46,660 nucleotides of DNA. Source: Escherichia phage aalborv. Position numbers and translations under genes: made by a program. Shown in pieces: positions 6,371 to 14,166 of the stretch. The stretch is taken from the sequence record NC_049829.1. One strand, given 5' to 3'. Under the pieces are notes generated by a model that worked only from the letters and a program-made list of their open reading frames with translations, made no database searches and was not told the origin of the DNA. Within the stretch, counting starts at the first letter, position 1; each line of letters opens with the position of its first letter.

Positions 6371-6823
6371 TCAGAAAGGAATGTCGTCGTCAAAATCCAT
6401 AGGTGGCTGATTACTTTGTCTTGGCTGTTGCGGTTGTTGCGGTTGATTCTGTTGTTGTGGTTGGCCCCATCCCCCTTGCGTTCGCTGCTGATATTGTTGC
6501 TGGCTTTCCCCGCGCTGACTGAAGATAAGATTTGCAAATCCACCAGGCATCAAACTTGAATACATCTTTCCGTTGTGTTCTCGCGTTTCAATGCGCAGAG
6601 TGTCACAAGAAACAGAAATAACCTTGCCAACCTGGAACGCCTCAGCATACCAACCATTAAGTCCGTCAGTTTTCGCATTAAAAAAGAAACTGTAGTTTGT
6701 ATATTGCCAGTTTCCATCTTTATCTTTGTATCGCTCTGAAAGTTCAACCACATAAAGTGTGCTGCCGTTAGGCATTTGCTTTACTCGCGGCTCTTTTCGG
6801 ATCTCACCAGTAATAATATGCAT
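6371..6823 (-). CDS. single-stranded DNA-binding protein
   Basis: C-terminal acidic tail DFDDDIPF identical to the E. coli SSB tail motif, preceded by Gln/Pro-rich linker; N-terminal OB-fold-sized domain. Confidence 0.75.
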   Translation of the reverse strand: MHIITGEIRKEPRVKQMPNGSTLYVVELSERYKDKDGNWQYTNYSFFFNAKTDGLNGWYAEAFQVGKVISVSCDTLRIETREHNGKMYSSLMPGGFANLIFSQRGESQQQYQQRTQGGWGQPQQQNQPQQPQQPRQSNQPPMDFDDDIPF

Positions 6824-6840
6824 TATTTATTCTCCTGTAA

Positions 6841-6862
6841 GAAAGGGGCGCAAGCGCCCCAT
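6841..6862 (-). terminator. hairpin after ERF gene (weak terminator / attenuator)
   Basis: Stem GGGGCGC..GCGCCCC followed by TTTCTT on minus strand. Confidence 0.4.
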
Positions 6863-6867
6863 GTCAA

Positions 6868-7524
6868 TTATTCGAAATCAGTGATACTTTGTGATTTTAC
6901 TTGCTCGTCGTTTTTTGTGTCAACGTCTTGAGCGGCGAGATTTTGCTTTGGTTGCGCTGGATTAAATCCTCGTGCTTTTCCGATCTCAAGCTCTGCTTTG
7001 CGTTTTTCGTAATGCTCTTTAATTACCTGCTTGCTTGCCGGATCGCTTGCCTTCCATGCTGATTTAAGCACTTCTTGTAATTCGTTCACGCTTTCGCATT
7101 TCTCAATGTCACGCTTCCAGTCGTTTGCAGATTTAACGGCAATCTGCGCGTCATCGTCTGCCTGGCTTAAGCCAAATGCTGCGGCTGCTGCATAACGACG
7201 CGCGTATGTGAATGCAGATCCGACACCTTGAGGATCGTTTTTAACTATTGGTAATTCAGCATAGAATTTAACGTACTGACCGGACACATGAAGCACTGTC
7301 GTTTCAACTTTAATCCTATTTGGCTGATCGCTTTCAATCATATCCTGCATAAGCATTAATTCGTTATCGTTTAGCGCCGGAGTGATTGCATCAAGAACTG
7401 CATCAAGCGTTGCGTAACGATTTTTAAGGTGAGTGTTTTGCTTGTCCTTTTTAACCTTCACAAACAAGCTGCGAGCCTTATGCAGCGCTGGTAAAACCTT
7501 GTCGAATTGCTCTGATAGTTTCAT
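6868..7524 (-). CDS. ERF-family single-strand annealing protein (recombinase)
   Basis: 218 aa; motif [23 protein letters not shown] matches recalled ERF signature (SSYARKY...GLFGIDD of P22 Erf); adjacent to SSB and exonuclease. Confidence 0.7.
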
Positions 7525-7569
7525 GATTAATTCCCGTAATTCATGGCGGCTTTCGCCGCCTTATTGCTG

Positions 7570-7848
7570 TTAGTGTTTTGTTTCTTCTTTAGTGTGTAAT
7601 TTAATAAGATTTTCCATCATGCGATCAGAACTTTCTTTTACCGCCTTGATTGCTTCCTCGTTGTCTTCACTCATTGTCGCAATGAGCACGACGTTATCGA
7701 CTGCATCTATTACTTTTCTGATGTACTCCATTTCTTCTTCGCCTGCTGTTGGATCAAGTGGCTCTACAAAGTCACGAAGCAACATAGCCATGCCAGTTGC
7801 AAAATTGTTGATATGAACTGCTACCTCTGACACTTGTTTGTTTTCCAT
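7570..7848 (-). CDS. hypothetical acidic protein (92 aa)
   Basis: ORF track; degenerate motif-type promoter upstream (7880..7921). Confidence 0.45.
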   Translation of the reverse strand: MENKQVSEVAVHINNFATGMAMLLRDFVEPLDPTAGEEEMEYIRKVIDAVDNVVLIATMSEDNEEAIKAVKESSDRMMENLIKLHTKEETKH

Positions 7849-7879
7849 GTTTATTTCCTTACGCTTATTGTTAACTTAT

Positions 7880-7921
7880 GCGGTGAATTATAACACCGCA
7901 TTTTTCATTTGTTTAGCTATT
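7880..7921 (-). promoter_or_regulatory. degenerate motif-type promoter (AAATAGCTAAA ... TATAAT)
   Basis: -10 TATAAT at 7886..7891 inside inverted repeat TGCGGTG..CACCGCA; partial motif at 7911..7921. Confidence 0.4.
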
Positions 7922-7929
7922 TGTGCTGT

Positions 7930-8991
7930 TTAAATAAGATATTGCTTAAACTGGCGTCGCACCCAATCAGGAGTATCAAGGCAAACCTCCGGCTCGCCGT
8001 TTGAATACGAAGGCCAAACGTCATGTTGCTGGCACATGGCAAACTGGTTAATTACGCTCATGTACTGAATGCGCCCGATCTTCAATTGCTCGCTGTTCAT
8101 GCGGAAAGCTAACGGCAAGTAAGGCTCTTTCTTCTCTTGCGCTAACAGGCGCACAACTATAGGTCGCTTTTCTTCTGGATACGCTTTCCTGAATAAATCA
8201 CATTGCAACGCCATTTTCAGATAATAGCCGTGATTGTAAGCCAGGCGCATAAACTCAACCGGATTAGCGATCATTGTTGTTTTGTAGTCAGTAATCACAA
8301 TCGCCTCTGGATAAATAATATCGCGGCAAATCGGTTGACCTTTTTCATCGTAACCATCAATCAGCGTTGCGGTGACGTTCTTTGTTACGTCAACGTGATC
8401 GCATCGCACTTTGACTTTTACGCCGTTGATTTCACCGAACAACGATAATTCACGTTGTGCTGTCTTGCTATTCATACATGCGTTATGTTCCGGTATTGAT
8501 TCCAGAACCTGGCGCATTGCAACGCACGAATCGTAATCTTTAGCTTCGATTAACTGAACCCCATCGGCCCTGGCCTGACTTTCTGCGATCATGTCGATTA
8601 ACCACATGACGTTAAGGTCTTCTCCGCAGTCGACCATCATTTTTATAAGTTCGGGGTAAGTCTTTCCGGTTGTACCTTTCAGGCCAAATGATTTCAGCTT
8701 TGCAGCAAGCGCCGTTTGGCTGGTTATCAGATCCTTAAAGTCTTCTGGCGCTGGCGCACGGCGATAGTTTTTTTCGAAAAGCTCCTTGCTTTCAAAGTTG
8801 GTATGCGACTGCGTACCAAAAACTAGCGCCTTGCTCTTGTCGTCACGCGGCTTGAACTTCCACGCTGCCGGGCATGTGCTGTAAATCTCCGCCAGGCTTG
8901 AACCGCTAACATAATCAGCCGTCCACGCTTCTGGATCGTGATAAAGCTCGTTGCTCATTTCTTCGCTGGTGTACGCCATAAACTTATTCAT
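7930..8991 (-). CDS. PD-(D/E)XK exonuclease (RecE/YqaJ-like) partner of ERF
   Basis: 353 aa; D-x-K-containing segment IVITDYKT; synteny with ERF and SSB; GAGGG SD; sigma70-like promoter 9015..9048. Confidence 0.55.
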   Translation of the reverse strand: MNKFMAYTSEEMSNELYHDPEAWTADYVSGSSLAEIYSTCPAAWKFKPRDDKSKALVFGTQSHTNFESKELFEKNYRRAPAPEDFKDLITSQTALAAKLKSFGLKGTTGKTYPELIKMMVDCGEDLNVMWLIDMIAESQARADGVQLIEAKDYDSCVAMRQVLESIPEHNACMNSKTAQRELSLFGEINGVKVKVRCDHVDVTKNVTATLIDGYDEKGQPICRDIIYPEAIVITDYKTTMIANPVEFMRLAYNHGYYLKMALQCDLFRKAYPEEKRPIVVRLLAQEKKEPYLPLAFRMNSEQLKIGRIQYMSVINQFAMCQQHDVWPSYSNGEPEVCLDTPDWVRRQFKQYLI

Positions 8992-9304: not shown

Positions 9305-9415
9305 ATATGTATTTATATATATTTATCTGTATATATTGCTCTCTATTGTTGTTTACTTTTTGCTCTAAATTTACGCCTCCGCAGATTTGAGAACGCATGA
9401 GAACAAAAAGAACAG

Positions 9416-9465
9416 AATAGCACTTTTTGCTAAACGCCTGCTGTAAGATCGTGTATAGTTGCAAC
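9416..9465 (+). promoter_or_regulatory. motif-type promoter (variant AATAGCACTTTTTGCTAAA) for Cor-like gene
   Basis: Motif 9416..9435; -10 TATAGT 9454..9459 after 21-bp spacer. Confidence 0.5.
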
Positions 9466-9490
9466 CAACAACAACGAAGGAGATACCAAG

Positions 9491-9718
9491 ATGAAAAAAT
9501 TAATCGCCGTTTTGATTGCAGCCGTAACCCTGACTGGTTGCGCAAATATGCCTAAACGTGAATGCACGGCTATTTATGAAAATAGCGGTATGCAGTATTC
9601 AGTTGCTATTTTTGGAGTAAAACGAGTTGGCGACCGCACTCTTGTTAAGGCTGGCTATCCGTTTAATTTTCAGTGGGTAAGTATTGATAACTTTAAAAAC
9701 GCTGATTGCAGTCTGTAA
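9491..9718 (+). CDS. small outer-membrane lipoprotein, Cor-like superinfection exclusion candidate
   Basis: 75 aa; signal peptide plus lipobox LTGC; only plus-strand gene between the exonuclease and tail modules; promoter 9416..9465; terminator 9725..9750. Confidence 0.5.
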   Translation: MKKLIAVLIAAVTLTGCANMPKRECTAIYENSGMQYSVAIFGVKRVGDRTLVKAGYPFNFQWVSIDNFKNADCSL

Positions 9719-9724
9719 ATAAAA

Positions 9725-9750
9725 ATAAAGGGGCGAAAGCCCCTTTTTTC
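9725..9750. terminator. bidirectional intrinsic terminator between convergent Cor-like and tail-fiber-like genes
   Basis: Stem GGGGC-gaaa-GCCCC flanked by A-tract and T-tract. Confidence 0.65.
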
Positions 9751-9751
9751 A

Positions 9752-10390
9752 TTAGTCGTAAATATCAGTCTTGATGGCAATTATTGAGTTTCCGTTATTT
9801 GTTATAGAACCTGTTCCTGGAGTTGTCCTTGCCGCACCTATCCTTGTGCTTGAACCATCATACCTGCATGATGTATATATGTCAGACGCACCCATACCTA
9901 TAACAGCACCAAGCCTTGATGGGCAAACGGCATAAGAACCAGATAATGTCTGATCTATATTAGTTCCCCCTGAAGAACCATGAGCACCAATTGTCACAAG
10001 GTCTGTTAGCACCCTGCTTTCATTAGTTAAAACCAACTTGCCGCTTGCATCCCATATAGCCATTCCATATTTTGGCAGAGTTTGAGGGAATATGGCAAAT
10101 ATATAAACAGTCATTGTAAATGATTGCCCGTATGGATTGCCTCCGTTTACATAAATGTTGCCACCATTCCTGTAAGCTATTAATGCAGTTGGCTGCTGTG
10201 TGTTTGTTGTTTTTATAAATGCCATACATTGATAAGATTGATTTAATGGTATATTTGCGCTTGCGCTATGATAGGCAGAATTGCCAGAAGATGAATAAGT
10301 GTACTTGCCATATAAGCAAAATGGCGTTGATTTTGGTGTGATAAATGGATTCCCATTTGATAAAGATAACATTGCTCCATATTCAGCCAT
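9752..10390 (-). CDS. putative tail fiber / host-range protein (paralog A)
   Basis: Start set at MAEYG (ATG 10390) directly after stop of upstream paralog with GAGGG SD; Gly/Ser/Thr/Asn/Tyr-rich; downstream of J. Confidence 0.4.
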   Translation of the reverse strand: MAEYGAMLSLSNGNPFITPKSTPFCLYGKYTYSSSGNSAYHSASANIPLNQSYQCMAFIKTTNTQQPTALIAYRNGGNIYVNGGNPYGQSFTMTVYIFAIFPQTLPKYGMAIWDASGKLVLTNESRVLTDLVTIGAHGSSGGTNIDQTLSGSYAVCPSRLGAVIGMGASDIYTSCRYDGSSTRIGAARTTPGTGSITNNGNSIIAIKTDIYD

Positions 10391-10391
10391 T

Positions 10392-10697
10392 TTAAGCCCT
10401 CTCAAGAAAAACAACTAACTCGCACTTTGAAGAAGAATACCTATTTGGACCAACTGACGATGTAGGACTAATTCTTATTGTATTTCCAGATGCCACTATT
10501 TCCCTTCCAACTCCTCTAGCGCCTTCATCAAGTGAAACAACATACCCAACCTTAAAACCACTTGGAATGCTAAAGCTCCACGATCCGCTTGTCTGACCAG
10601 CGGCAAGACTGATGACACCAACAACGGAAACTGGCTTAATCCCGTAGTTATTATATTTTCCGTTAGCATCCCACGTTGAAATTCCATACTCAGCCAT
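10392..10697 (-). CDS. putative tail fiber / host-range protein (paralog B)
   Basis: Start set at MAEYG (ATG 10697, GGAGG SD) because track N-terminus overlaps J; shares N-terminal MAEYG..WDA..GK block with paralog A. Confidence 0.4.
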   Translation of the reverse strand: MAEYGISTWDANGKYNNYGIKPVSVVGVISLAAGQTSGSWSFSIPSGFKVGYVVSLDEGARGVGREIVASGNTIRISPTSSVGPNRYSSSKCELVVFLERA

Positions 10698-10706
10698 TAT
10701 TAAACC

Positions 10707-10735
10707 TCCATAAATGCGGGGCAAACGCCCCGCTT
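10707..10735 (-). terminator. hairpin after J-like gene (possible attenuator)
   Basis: Stem GCGGGGC..GCCCCGC followed by ATTTAT on minus strand. Confidence 0.4.
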
Positions 10736-10740
10736 TGATT

Positions 10741-13700
10741 TTACCACGTACCAGTAAGCCTACCAATCTGAACACGCAAGCGCCCGTTTGCGTCTCGTAC
10801 ACTTATCGTTTCGTTTGTCAACTTCATGGCCCCTTCTCCAGGAGTAGAGCCATAATTTTCAAACGTGCCGTTTTTATCCAGCCTCCATCCTGTTTGATTC
10901 CAAACGTAATTGTTTGATTGGATGAAGTTACCGATCATCGCATTGGTGATTGAACCATTTTTCACTAACAGGCTGTTAATGAAAACTTGGTTGTTTTCGA
11001 CCACAAAAGGCAATGTATACGACCCTCCGGTAGAACTCGTCATGATCGCAAATCTTCCAGCATCAAAAAGGATTTGTGAAATCAACCCTTGAGCGCTGTT
11101 TGATAGCTGCATGACCATTCCGGCGCTGTACTTCTGCCCGTTGTATGTCAATCCAAGTTTCATTGCGTACTGTGCGCCAACTCCATTAACGCCAGCCCAT
11201 GAATCAAGTTTTTCAGTAAGCGCCGATTCAACATCTCCAAACTTCGCTGTTAGTGCTGTATCAGCCGAAACGCGCGCCTCTGTTTCGCTTGCAATCGCCT
11301 CCTCAACTCTCGTTAATTGCCCCTGAATATCATCACCAATCTGTGATTTCAATTTCTCAATGGCTGTGGCTCGCGTTTCCGATTCTGTTGCAATTGCCTG
11401 ATCAAGTCTCGTTACTTCGCTAGTTATCTCCTCGTTAAATTCAGCCTTTAGTTGCGTCATTGCGGTAACGCGCGCTTCCGTTTCATTTGCGATCAATTGG
11501 ATTGATTGTCTAAACTCGGCTTTGCGTTTTCCGTTCTCCTTCCTCATAATCCTAACGTCTGTATCATTCGCCAATGCGTTTTGAATGATGCTTTGTGCCT
11601 GATCCTTGATTTTGTTTGCGCTATCAATGGCGTTCTCTTTCAGATCCTTTCCTGCTTCGGTATCAAAAATCTTATCAAGAATATCTCCTAAAACAGCCTC
11701 AACATCATCTGAAGCCATGCCTCTAACAAAATCAGTCCAGCCGGAAACGTTGCCGATTCTGTCAACACTTCGGATTCTATACCATACAACATGACCAGCC
11801 GGAAGCGTACCGTGCCAGTATTCATATTGTGGATATGGGATCAGCGTTAACAGGCTTGAGTTTTCAGCCGTTCCATCAGGCGACTGATGAAGCTCAATGT
11901 ATGCCGTGTCTCCGCTCCCTTCTGGCATCCCCCACTTAACACGAATGCCAAACACCTCATTGTCTGATGCAGTTAAGTTAACTGGCGCGCCTGGCTCTCC
12001 TACCTTACCAGTCAGTGAAGCTGTCACAATTCTGGACCACGGCGACGTAGAACCGGAAGCAGAAACAGATCTTACCCTTACCTGGTAGTTTCCTGAATAA
12101 ATACCTTCAACCTCAATTTCTTTGTTTGCAGTCTGTGGTGTATTCAGCCAGTTGCCATCACCTTTTCGCCACTGCATTTCATACAGCGATGCGTAAGGTA
12201 CTTTATCCCACGACACAACCATTGTTTCAACGCTTGCACCCTGGACAATTCGCGAGTAGGAGGATATTTGCACATTTTCAGGCGCTGCCATTGTGTCAGG
12301 CTGGACAATTGAAGTTGGCCTGTCGTCAATGTTTACTCCATAATCAATCTCGTCGTATTTGTTCGGGTCATATTCAACAGCTGTGATGGAGTATGTAAAT
12401 TCATCATCATCATCACCTTTGCCGATACTCGTTACAACGTATTGCTGCAATGCAATATCAGTGCGGTCGATTGCAAAAACCGTGTCCGGTTTAACTTCAA
12501 ATCCAAACCCAATGTTTAACTCAATGGTTTTTCCGTCACCGCTTACCTTTGAGATTGTGCGCTTAACTGGCTTTCCGTCAGGCTTGTTGATGATAATGAA
12601 ATCACCTGGTCGCGCGTCAATCTTAAACGGAGCGAACACCTGCAAGCCGGAAACTTCCATCACGCGACCTGATAGGTTTAATTTAAGGTTGCTGCTGTGA
12701 AAATTGTCAGAAATAGCAATCACATCACCTATTGATGGGATCATGCCTTCCAGTCCAGTAGCAAAGTTTACCGTAGTGCTGCGCAAGTTGGTTTTTAGTA
12801 TCCATCGACCGCGCCGATTAGCCTCACTCCTGCGTGTACATCCGATAGCTGTTATGCTTGTTGGATTGTATCCAAATCGCAATGCTGCCTCGGTGTCGAA
12901 TACGCCCTCAACGTCCTGTTGATACATGTTTTGTTCGTCGTCGAACGTCACGTTGCACTGCGTGTACATGCTCTTTTCGCTTGCTGTTGTGTACTGAAAA
13001 TCACCATCAACAACGTTGTCATTGGTGAAGATGTACGACGGATCGCGCGGCTTATCAATGACGATTGACAAGCTCTCGCCATTCCAAAAGCTCATGCCTC
13101 GGAAGATTGAGCAAATATCACGAATAAGCTGATAAGCCTCAATCTGACTCTGGATAACAACATCACATAGATAGCGTGGCTCTGTGCCTCCTTTTCCGTC
13201 AGGCACTTTCTGATCGCAGTATTGCGCCGCTTCGTAAAGACTCCATTTGTCAACATGCACACCAAGTTCTCTCTGATCTAATCCGTATCGCTGGTTTGTG
13301 ATAATGTCATAAAGTACCCACGCCGGATTGTTCGACCACGCTTTCTTGAATGTACCATCCCATGAACCGTGATACTCTCGCATTACCGTATCGTAATTGC
13401 TCGGAACATTAATCAACTTCCATTTCTTCTTGATTGAAATGTTAGGGATCTGGTTAGGGAACAACTCACTGTCAAATTCAACGTATACAAGACCAGTCAG
13501 AGGATAACGGAATTTTGCATCAATAACCTCAGCGTAACTTTGTAGCTTAATCAGATCAGTAACACGAGAAGATGTGCTGTCTGCCGTAACCCTTCTAACC
13601 CTAAGTAGTACGCGATCATTAAATGCCGGAAGGTCAATCCTCCGGCTTCTGTCGTAACCGGAACGCGTTTTACCTTCGATAGTGTCTAGCAATACCTCTT

Positions 13701-14166
13701 TGTAAGAGTCTCCGTCAACAGCCATATCAACAGCATAAGTAACCTTAACGCCGACAAGATCGCCGTTATCCTCTTGTCTAATGCCTGTTGGCATTAGCAT
13801 TTTGATTCTGATAGCCGATAATGTTTTGTTGGTTACAGAAATTACATAAGGATTTGATGTAGTAATGTCACGCGCCAGCGTCACTTCGCTTGATGTGTCA
13901 GTAAACCCCTGGATGTAATCTTGCGTCTGCGTTCCAGGTCGAAATTCAGCTTTCACACCCTGGTAGTTAACAGTTCCGTCGTCTGCAATTACCGGAACAT
14001 CATCAAGATACAGATCGCGAAGTGTAAAATCTGGATCGCACTCGCCATCGGAAACGGCAAGAAGGATTTTGATTTTGTTGATTGAGATCAGGTTATCTTC
14101 CATCTCTTTCGGAACATAAGGTTTTGATGATCCGCCCTTACTGCCCGTTATCATATTTTCAGTCAT
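10741..14166 (-). CDS. tail tip / host specificity protein (lambda J-like central tail fiber)
   Basis: 1141 aa, largest ORF after tape measure; position after I-K-L-M homologs; AAGGTG SD; sigma70-like promoter 14194..14228. Confidence 0.8.
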   Translation of the reverse strand: MTENMITGSKGGSSKPYVPKEMEDNLISINKIKILLAVSDGECDPDFTLRDLYLDDVPVIADDGTVNYQGVKAEFRPGTQTQDYIQGFTDTSSEVTLARDITTSNPYVISVTNKTLSAIRIKMLMPTGIRQEDNGDLVGVKVTYAVDMAVDGDSYKEVLLDTIEGKTRSGYDRSRRIDLPAFNDRVLLRVRRVTADSTSSRVTDLIKLQSYAEVIDAKFRYPLTGLVYVEFDSELFPNQIPNISIKKKWKLINVPSNYDTVMREYHGSWDGTFKKAWSNNPAWVLYDIITNQRYGLDQRELGVHVDKWSLYEAAQYCDQKVPDGKGGTEPRYLCDVVIQSQIEAYQLIRDICSIFRGMSFWNGESLSIVIDKPRDPSYIFTNDNVVDGDFQYTTASEKSMYTQCNVTFDDEQNMYQQDVEGVFDTEAALRFGYNPTSITAIGCTRRSEANRRGRWILKTNLRSTTVNFATGLEGMIPSIGDVIAISDNFHSSNLKLNLSGRVMEVSGLQVFAPFKIDARPGDFIIINKPDGKPVKRTISKVSGDGKTIELNIGFGFEVKPDTVFAIDRTDIALQQYVVTSIGKGDDDDEFTYSITAVEYDPNKYDEIDYGVNIDDRPTSIVQPDTMAAPENVQISSYSRIVQGASVETMVVSWDKVPYASLYEMQWRKGDGNWLNTPQTANKEIEVEGIYSGNYQVRVRSVSASGSTSPWSRIVTASLTGKVGEPGAPVNLTASDNEVFGIRVKWGMPEGSGDTAYIELHQSPDGTAENSSLLTLIPYPQYEYWHGTLPAGHVVWYRIRSVDRIGNVSGWTDFVRGMASDDVEAVLGDILDKIFDTEAGKDLKENAIDSANKIKDQAQSIIQNALANDTDVRIMRKENGKRKAEFRQSIQLIANETEARVTAMTQLKAEFNEEITSEVTRLDQAIATESETRATAIEKLKSQIGDDIQGQLTRVEEAIASETEARVSADTALTAKFGDVESALTEKLDSWAGVNGVGAQYAMKLGLTYNGQKYSAGMVMQLSNSAQGLISQILFDAGRFAIMTSSTGGSYTLPFVVENNQVFINSLLVKNGSITNAMIGNFIQSNNYVWNQTGWRLDKNGTFENYGSTPGEGAMKLTNETISVRDANGRLRVQIGRLTGTW

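What the first reader, a model, noticed from the sequence alone, without database searches (positions are those of the whole stretch)
9752..10697. Paralogous pair of small proteins downstream of the J-like gene
Two adjacent genes (9752..10390 and 10392..10697) begin with the same MAEYG..WDA.GK N-terminal block and then diverge into Gly/Ser/Thr/Asn/Tyr-rich sequences. The conserved N-terminus could be an attachment domain and the variable C-termini receptor-binding or host-range modules. They are translationally coupled (TAA-n-ATG).
Basis: inference. Interest (0 to 1): 0.5.

Follow-up and report, generated by a model that had tools for sequence, protein, structure and literature searches.

The report
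Tail-tip receptor-binding pair of T1-like phage

Summary
The two genes are real. They lie on the minus strand (A, 10392..10697, 101 aa; B, 9752..10390, 212 aa) directly after the J-like central tail fibre gene, joined by TAA-A-ATG. The window is a Hanrivervirus-like T1 relative; this stretch is 97.6% identical to phage vojen. A and B are orthologues of T1 ST32/ST31 and match PHROG 557/425. Both occur in about 350 phage records, next to J and nearly always next to cor, the FhuA-linked superinfection-exclusion lipoprotein.

"Same N-terminal block" is only partly right. Both start MAEYG, but WDA.GK sits at A residues 9-14 and B residues 113-118. The hairpin-like motif occurs once in A, twice in B and twice in the last 50 residues of J, and nowhere else in the window. 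Paralogy of A with B's N-terminal half is weakly supported.

Most likely B is the terminal FhuA binder docked on the J trimer, and A is an accessory or adaptor. The literature already proposes this locus as the FhuA specificity locus, untested biochemically. Ordinary, modest interest.

The parts
10741..14166 (-). J-like central tail fibre gene (1141 aa)
   Evidence: Pfam FNIII-A_GpJ, Phage-tail_3 and Phage_Tail_Tip (residues 983-1117); phrog_31.
10849..10878 (-). First motif copy in the J C-terminus (LDKNGTFENYG, within GWRLDKNGTFENYGS)
   Evidence: One of only two matches to D.[SN]G...NYG in the six-frame window; the other is the A N-terminus.
10762..10806 (-). Last motif copy in J (ISVRDANGRLRVQIG), 6 residues before the J stop
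   Evidence: Read from the translation. It resembles A ISTWDANGK and B MAIWDASGKLVL. This end of J co-varies with the type of downstream locus.
10716..10733 (.). GC-rich hairpin (GCGGGGC-N4-GCCCCGC) in the 43-nt J-A spacer
   Evidence: Terminator-like on the + strand. On the - strand it is followed only by ATTTAT. The T1 record annotates a rho-independent terminator at the same position between ST33 and ST32.
10392..10697 (-). Gene A: 101-aa protein, orthologue of T1 ST32, similar to N15 gp22
   Evidence: phrog_557 E 4e-30. AF2 pLDDT 88.4: a 6-strand beta-sandwich at 25-100 and a low-confidence N-terminal arm at 1-20. GGAGG lies 8 nt before the ATG.
10641..10688 (-). A N-terminal motif YGISTWDANGKYNNYG
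   Evidence: G5, N16, N17, Y18, G19, I20, P22 invariant in 55 homologues.
9752..10390 (-). Gene B: 212-aa protein, orthologue of T1 ST31, similar to N15 gp23; candidate FhuA-binding protein
10343..10381 (-). B first motif YGAMLSLSNGNPF (residues 4-16)
   Evidence: Conserved (G5, F16, T18, P19, P23 invariant) but pLDDT 57-62 in the monomer model.
10037..10069 (-). B second, internal motif YGMAIWDASGK (residues 108-118)
   Evidence: It lies in the most conserved block of the family, residues 91-160.
9727..9746 (.). Bidirectional intrinsic terminator between B (-) and cor (+)
   Evidence: The stem-loop is flanked by T runs on both strands.
9491..9718 (+). cor: 75-aa lipoprotein, superinfection exclusion partner of the locus
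   Evidence: phrog_1119 'Cor superinfection exclusion protein' E 4e-29; lipobox LTGC. cor is present in 79 of 80 related loci.

Best explanation
[quoted passage not shown] B is most likely the monomeric terminal receptor-binding protein that recognises the outer-membrane transporter FhuA. Its two lobes carry variable surface stretches (residues ~31-90 and ~161-200) that would contact the receptor. Its conserved parts (residues 1-30 and 91-160, each containing a Y/W-G-x3-4-[WL]-[DN]-x-x-G hairpin motif) would dock it on the tip of the J trimer. A is a small beta-sandwich protein with one copy of the same motif on a flexible N-terminal arm. It is made together with B by translational coupling and most likely co-assembles at the J tip as an adaptor or accessory subunit. 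The convergent cor gene encodes the lipoprotein that blocks FhuA in infected cells. Shown here: gene structure, coupling, family membership, synteny, motif distribution, the match of B's predicted fold to a solved receptor-binding protein, and the joint exchange of the J C-terminus with the locus. Inferred: FhuA binding by B, presence of A and B in the virion, and docking through the hairpins.
Confidence: 0.65

Rival explanations
1. J itself binds FhuA through its C-terminal tip. A and B are non-structural helpers (assembly chaperones for the J tip, as Tfa or gp38-type proteins are for other fibres) that are absent from the virion or not in contact with the receptor.
For: Lewis et al. list the J-like protein as the receptor-binding protein of these phages (PMC10373560). 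The 2026 preprint speaks of 'accessory proteins' in the locus. A is small and has no significant fold match. J's last residues also differ between locus types.
Against: B's predicted fold matches a protein shown by cryo-EM to bind its receptor directly. J's tip differs by only ~10-20 residues between locus types, while A and B are replaced wholesale. In TolC and LamB users the locus is absent and J carries an extension instead (PMC8594841; long-J loci).
Confidence: 0.15
2. A and B are membrane-associated moron or host-takeover proteins, as their database labels say ('outer membrane protein', 'membrane associated protein'), acting in the infected cell like Lom or Cor.
For: The PHROG and RefSeq labels; their position next to cor.
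Against: Neither has a signal peptide, lipobox or hydrophobic segment: the maximum 19-residue Kyte-Doolittle mean is ~1.0, against 1.56 for the Cor signal peptide. They are co-oriented and translationally coupled with the tail genes. They are kept in strictly lytic T1-like phages. The fold evidence points the other way. Published membrane-affinity estimates for homologues are low (PMC12309495).
Confidence: 0.05
3. A forms a homotrimeric Ig-like extension of the J trimer, equivalent to the C-terminal domain of lambda J, and B caps that trimer (J3:A3:B1).
For: This arrangement was modelled for JLBYU60 and relatives (PMC12309495). A is a beta-sandwich with a free N-terminal arm.
Against: The same paper reports that models favoured B directly on the J tip over the A trimer. 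A shows no sequence similarity to the lambda J C-terminus (hhalign score 14.4, within the column-shuffle null measured for other profile pairs). No Foldseek hit to lambda J chains appears among the top 50 listed. Tight A-to-B translational coupling fits 1:1 synthesis better than 3:1, but does not exclude 3:1.
Confidence: 0.15

Closest known systems
T1 ST32/ST31 (similar to N15 gp22/gp23 and two HK022 hypothetical proteins): the FhuA-type 'bona fide RBP locus' downstream of gpJ (BASEL, PMC8594841)
   Same: Orthologous proteins (A 60% identical, B about 52-55% identical in Tunavirus relatives of T1). Same order J-A-B with convergent cor. A hairpin or terminator sits between J and A in both.
   Different: Nothing essential; this is the same module in a Hanrivervirus-like genome. 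Function in T1 is also only inferred.
Oekolampad / Rtp44 LptD-binding proteins (Pfam DUF6453, PDB 9RPT chain C)
   Different: One chain of 311-323 aa with three motif copies, against A (one copy) plus B (two copies). No detectable sequence similarity. Opposite strand to J. Receptor is LptD, not FhuA. The exclusion protein is Rtp45-like, not Cor.
T5 pb5 with Llp
   Same: Works alike: a monomeric protein at the end of a trimeric central fibre binds FhuA, and a small lipoprotein blocks FhuA in infected cells (PMC9586334).
Lambda J C-terminal receptor-binding domain (LamB)
   Same: Same place in the particle. The window's J aligns with lambda J up to residue ~1069 of 1141, lambda residue 931.
   Different: In lambda the binding domain is the last ~200 residues of J itself. 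Here J ends in a ~70-residue hairpin tip and the binder is encoded separately. A and B have no similarity to it.

Membership tests
FhuA-type RBP locus of small siphoviruses (T1 ST32/ST31/cor) | Genes lie immediately downstream of the gpJ homologue | tested here: met
   A starts 43 nt after the J stop and B 1 nt after the A stop. The same layout is seen in vojen and T1.
FhuA-type RBP locus of small siphoviruses (T1 ST32/ST31/cor) | Proteins homologous to those of phages with experimentally shown FhuA dependence | tested here: met
   The locus is 94% identical in DNA to JLBYU41. Protein homologues occur in T1 and JLBYU60. Their FhuA dependence is reported in PMC10373560.
FhuA-type RBP locus of small siphoviruses (T1 ST32/ST31/cor) | Cognate Cor superinfection-exclusion lipoprotein gene is adjacent | tested here: met
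   9491..9718(+) matches phrog_1119 at E 4e-29 and has a lipobox. cor is present in 79 of 80 related loci.
FhuA-type RBP locus of small siphoviruses (T1 ST32/ST31/cor) | Phage needs FhuA; B binds FhuA; A and B are in the virion | not testable with these tools
   Needs plating on fhuA mutants, binding assays and virion mass spectrometry.
DUF6453 (PF20051) LptD-binding proteins | Match to the Pfam model | tested here: not met
   No Pfam family matches A or B at E <= 1. A profile of the B family finds no 9RPT sequence.
DUF6453 (PF20051) LptD-binding proteins | Fold of the solved member (9RPT chain C) | tested here: met
DUF6453 (PF20051) LptD-binding proteins | Single chain of ~311-323 aa with three hairpin-led modules | tested here: not met
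   B is 212 aa with two motif copies and A is 101 aa with one. No fused A-B protein appeared among 84 hits in 1.84 billion representatives.
Lambda J-type C-terminal receptor-binding domain | Sequence or fold similarity to the last ~200 residues of lambda J | tested here: not met
   hhalign scores are 14.4 (A) and 14.6 (B), within the column-shuffle null measured for other profile pairs. No lambda J chain is in the Foldseek lists.
T5 pb5 FhuA-binding protein | Sequence or fold similarity to pb5 | tested here: not met
Outer membrane / membrane-associated protein (database label) | Signal peptide, lipobox, transmembrane or beta-barrel features | tested here: not met
   No N-terminal signal is present. 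The maximum 19-residue hydropathy is 1.05 (A) and 0.93 (B). The models are soluble beta-sandwich folds.

The most novel reading that the evidence does not exclude
The receptor-binding unit on the trimeric J tip may be a pseudo-trimer of three hairpin-led beta modules, one per J chain, which would resolve the mismatch between a threefold fibre and a monomeric receptor. In LptD-type loci all three modules are in one DUF6453 chain. Its three motif segments are residues 1-25, 113-142 and 206-234, exactly the parts unresolved in the 9RPT cryo-EM map. In the FhuA-type locus and at least three further locus types, the modules are split into a small protein with one motif and a medium protein with two: 101+212 = 313 aa here, against 311 aa for Rtp44. 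A would then be an obligatory 1:1 subunit of the binder (J3:A1:B1). The FhuA- and LptD-type binders, described as unrelated families, would be one structural superfamily that docks by imitating J's own terminal hairpins.
Probability: 0.35. Interest if true: 0.6.

Novelty: already known. Interest (0 to 1): 0.3.

Why it matters
Receptor choice in T1-like, Dhillonvirus and lambdoid phages is set by this small exchangeable cassette. Knowing which residues dock on J and which contact the receptor is what one needs to predict host range from sequence and to re-target phages by swapping modules. This window adds no new module. The analysis does give three testable points. First, the FhuA-type protein is predicted to share the fold of the solved LptD binder. 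Second, the exchange unit runs from the last ~50 codons of J to the mature part of the exclusion lipoprotein. Third, every locus type carries three copies of one hairpin motif.

Tried and rejected
- Pfam scan of A and B: no family at E <= 1.
- PDB sequence searches with A, B and a B-family profile: only chance hits.
- Foldseek against the PDB for both models: nothing at E <= 0.001. The top hits (Sf6 tailspike, R2 pyocin fibre, PCSK9 C-terminal domain) have TM-scores of 0.25-0.4.
- HMMER cross-searches between A, the N-terminal half of B and the C-terminal half of B: no signal beyond the motif when compared with shuffled sequences.
- hhalign of A, B and concatenated A+B against a DUF6453 profile: the global score is above the shuffle null (21.5 against 3.5 +/- 2.7). 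The register is ambiguous (B aligns to modules 1-2 or 2-3), so the split-gene idea could not be settled by sequence.
- A-family profile against 1.84 billion representative proteins: about 60 stand-alone proteins of ~100 aa, and no B-like or fused proteins. The hits in giant repetitive proteins proved heterogeneous (PKD-like, FG-GAP, CBM) and were set aside as noise.
- Protein P0107, a J C-terminus joined in frame to an A N-terminus, looks like a decayed prophage ORF and not a true fusion.
- The published claim that A resembles the lambda J C-terminal Ig-like domain found no support by sequence or Foldseek.
- Receptors of the other locus types (represented by L085, L111, L136) could not be assigned from the papers read.

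Full report
**What is there**

The region holds two minus-strand genes directly after the J-like central tail fibre gene (10741..14166, 1141 aa). J carries the Pfam domains FNIII-A_GpJ, Phage-tail_3 and Phage_Tail_Tip, the last at residues 983-1117.
- Gene A is 10392..10697 and encodes 101 aa, starting MAEYGISTWDANGKYNNYGIKPVS.
- Gene B is 9752..10390 and encodes 212 aa, starting MAEYGAMLSLSNGNPFITPKSTPF.
- The longer ORFs from upstream GTG/TTG codons listed are not the real starts. Homologues and the vojen annotation begin at these ATGs, and each ATG is preceded by a Shine-Dalgarno-like sequence.
- The A stop and B start read TAA-A-ATG.
- Downstream of B lie a bidirectional terminator (9727..9746) and the convergent gene 9491..9718(+). 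That gene encodes a 75-aa lipoprotein matching the Cor superinfection-exclusion family (phrog_1119, E 4e-29).

**Origin**

The stretch 9400..10800 is 97.6% identical to Escherichia phage vojen (Drexlerviridae, Hanrivervirus). It is 94-96% identical to some 30 other T1-like phages, including JLBYU41. JLBYU41 was isolated as a FhuA-dependent phage (PMC10373560).

In T1 itself the orthologues are ST32 and ST31, next to ST30 (Cor) and after ST33 (J).
- ST32 is labelled 'outer membrane protein, similar to N15 gp22'.
- ST31 is labelled 'membrane associated protein, similar to N15 gp23'.

A matches phrog_557 (E 4e-30) and B matches phrog_425 (E 2.5e-67). Neither matches any Pfam family.

**Check of the observation**

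The genes, the coupling and the G/S/T/N/Y-rich composition (43% and 47%) are confirmed. The 'same N-terminal block' is only partly true.
- Both proteins begin MAEYG.
- WDA.GK follows at once only in A. In B it lies at residues 113-118, within KYGMAIWDASGK.
- In the six-frame translation of the whole window, [WL]D[AK][SN]G[KRT] occurs exactly three times: in the J C-terminus, the A N-terminus and the middle of B.
- D.[SN]G...NYG occurs exactly twice: J LDKNGTFENYG and A WDANGKYNNYG.
- J's last hairpin, ISVRDANGRLRVQIG, also resembles A ISTWDANGK and B MAIWDASGKLVL.

**Paralogy**
- Profile-profile comparison of the A family with the N-terminal half of the B family scores 27.6-27.9 over 80 columns. 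The column-shuffle nulls are 10.8-11.5 +/- 2.4, with maxima of 19-20.
- Two other families of small proteins from related loci also align with B's N-terminal half above the null: 25.3 over 89 columns and 23.5 over 38 columns.
- The two AlphaFold models show the same order and spacing of six strands (A 25-31, 38-41, 48-55, 65-70, 73-78, 92-100; B 25-33, 41-48, 55-62, 69-75, 78-85, 92-99).
- HMMER profiles see nothing beyond the motif.
- An A-family profile run over 1.84 billion representative proteins finds only stand-alone ~100-aa proteins.

I rate distant paralogy of A with B's N-terminal lobe as plausible but not shown.

**Distribution and synteny**
- tblastn finds B in 350 and A in 344 phage records. 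These include T1-like coliphages, Dhillonvirus, the FhuA-dependent HK/mEp lambdoid phages, and Klebsiella, Enterobacter and Erwinia relatives.
- In 80 viral contigs that carry B, A is present in 80, J in 78 and cor in 79.
- The A stop and B start overlap by 1 nt in 66 of them.
- cor is on the same strand in 75 and convergent in 4, the T1-like arrangement seen here.

**Structure**
- A: pLDDT 88.4, a six-strand beta-sandwich (25-100) with a low-confidence arm (1-20).
- B: pLDDT 90.4, pTM 0.87, all-beta, with residues 1-20 at pLDDT 57-62.
- Foldseek against the PDB gave nothing significant for either protein.
- 9RPT chain C is the receptor-binding protein of phage Oekolampad, solved by cryo-EM on the LptDE translocon (PMC12685063).
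- That protein is also encoded directly after gpJ and paired with an exclusion lipoprotein.
- Its family is Pfam DUF6453. It has no detectable sequence similarity to B.

**Evidence that the conserved motif regions dock on J**
1. In A, B and DUF6453 the first 25-30 residues are the most conserved. So are B 91-160 and the DUF6453 segments around 101-130 and 190-230. The variable stretches lie between them.
2. These conserved N-termini are the least confident parts of the monomer models.
3. In 9RPT, residues 1-25, 113-142 and 206-234 had to be modelled because density was absent (PMC12685063, methods). These are the three segments that carry the motif copies GILIDYNDGRP, AGLLVANSTDF and TGITMTNNQNQ.
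4. Two natural exchanges show what travels together.
   - The window's J is 97% identical to the J of a haarsle-type phage (L085), which has a different downstream pair. Identity falls to 0.84, 0.80 and 0.64 in the last three 25-residue blocks.
   - A T1-like J (L114, with A+B+cor) is 93% identical to that of L113 (DUF6453 type), but only 0.40 and 0.24 identical in the last 50 residues.
   - The preprint reports the same association for the J tip.
5. Each locus type repeats its own J's last hairpin. An example is Rtp J GITVNLPNGGRVVVG against Rtp44 GIYIDLNDGRKP.

**A wider pattern**

Sorting T1-like loci by the J body shows six arrangements:
- the A+B+cor type;
- three further 'small plus medium' pairs (92+204 aa, ~102+~216 aa, 123+265 aa), each small protein carrying one motif copy and each medium protein two, one N-terminal and one at ~100-125;
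- the single-chain DUF6453 type with three copies;
- long J proteins with no downstream binder.

The 204-aa protein is a clear B homologue (HMM E 7e-12). It has 44-45% identical relatives in Stx-converting phages.

Three motif copies per locus, the sizes (101+212 = 313 aa against 311 aa for Rtp44), and the 138 residues of B aligned on 254 resolved residues of 9RPT together suggest a pseudo-trimeric cap, one module per J chain, either fused or split. Sequence methods could not fix which DUF6453 modules B corresponds to, and no fused A-B protein was found. This remains a hypothesis; I give it a probability of about 0.35.

**What the literature already says**
- PMC12309495 modelled the JLBYU60 homologues: a small 'Ig-like' protein and a 23-kDa 'hand-like' protein. 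AlphaFold-multimer favoured the hand-like protein on the J tip and on FhuA. An SDS-PAGE band of fitting size was seen in a distant relative.
- The 2026 preprint confirmed the locus-receptor correlation in 101 siphoviruses.
- The T1 cryo-EM study could not resolve J residues 821-1172 (PMC11945409).

It is still untested biochemically for the FhuA type.

**Rivals**
- J alone binds FhuA and A/B are chaperones (0.15).
- An A homotrimer extends J, with B as cap (0.15).
- A and B are membrane morons, as their labels say (0.05). Against this: no signal peptide or hydrophobic segment, co-orientation and coupling with the tail genes, and the fold evidence.
- The published resemblance of A to the lambda J C-terminal domain was not reproduced.

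**Verdict**

This is a correct reading of a known module. The genes are near-identical to annotated genes of described phages, and their role as the receptor-specificity cassette is already proposed. Novelty is low and interest modest. The useful additions are the fold link between B and the solved LptD binder, the definition of the motif and of the exchange unit, and the three-module hypothesis.

Noticed in passing
window 10716..10733: A perfect 7-bp GC hairpin lies in the 43-nt spacer between J and gene A. It scores as a terminator on the + (antisense) strand and is followed only by ATTTAT on the coding strand. The T1 record annotates a rho-independent terminator at the same position. In most lambdoid relatives J and A instead abut or overlap (gap 1, -1 or -4 nt). 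It may lower A/B expression relative to J or stop antisense transcripts.
   Followed up: partly
L114 and L113 (viral contigs), genes after the binder genes: The Cor of a T1-like phage (MKKLITIIAAAFILTGCSSMPERTCT) and the exclusion lipoprotein of a DUF6453-type relative (MKKLITIIAAAFILTGCAQNLKNGDC) share an identical 17-residue signal peptide and then diverge. One boundary of the exchanged cassette seems to lie inside the lipoprotein gene. The other lies ~50 codons before the J stop.
   Followed up: partly
L085, L091, L092, L145; L089, L090, L094, L111, L129, L130; L136: There are three further types of 'small plus medium' gene pairs after J, mostly on the opposite strand to J, with the same one-plus-two motif layout and their own lipoprotein or secreted partner. 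Their receptors could not be assigned here. The 204-aa type has 44-45% identical relatives in Stx-converting phages.
   Followed up: partly
search hits for window 9400..10800: Eighteen GenBank records named 'Campylobacter phage' (e.g. A14b, A13a, A136; host given as Campylobacter jejuni) are 94% identical to this T1-like coliphage region. They look like mislabelled or contaminating coliphages.
   Followed up: no
window 9491..9718 compared with related loci: cor is convergent with B here and in T1-like phages, but co-oriented with B in 75 of 79 mostly lambdoid loci.
   Followed up: no
protein P0107 (from a 1.37-Mb ENA contig): This 139-aa ORF joins a J C-terminus (...RVQVGRLTG) in frame to an A N-terminus (MAYGIQTWDASGK...) and then breaks off. 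It is probably a decayed prophage, not a functional fusion.
   Followed up: partly
window 6371..8991: A recombination module on the minus strand lies next to the locus: exonuclease VIII-like (7930..8991), Erf-like annealing protein (6868..7524) and a single-strand DNA-binding protein (6371..6823). This matches the T1 and Rtp gene order.
   Followed up: no
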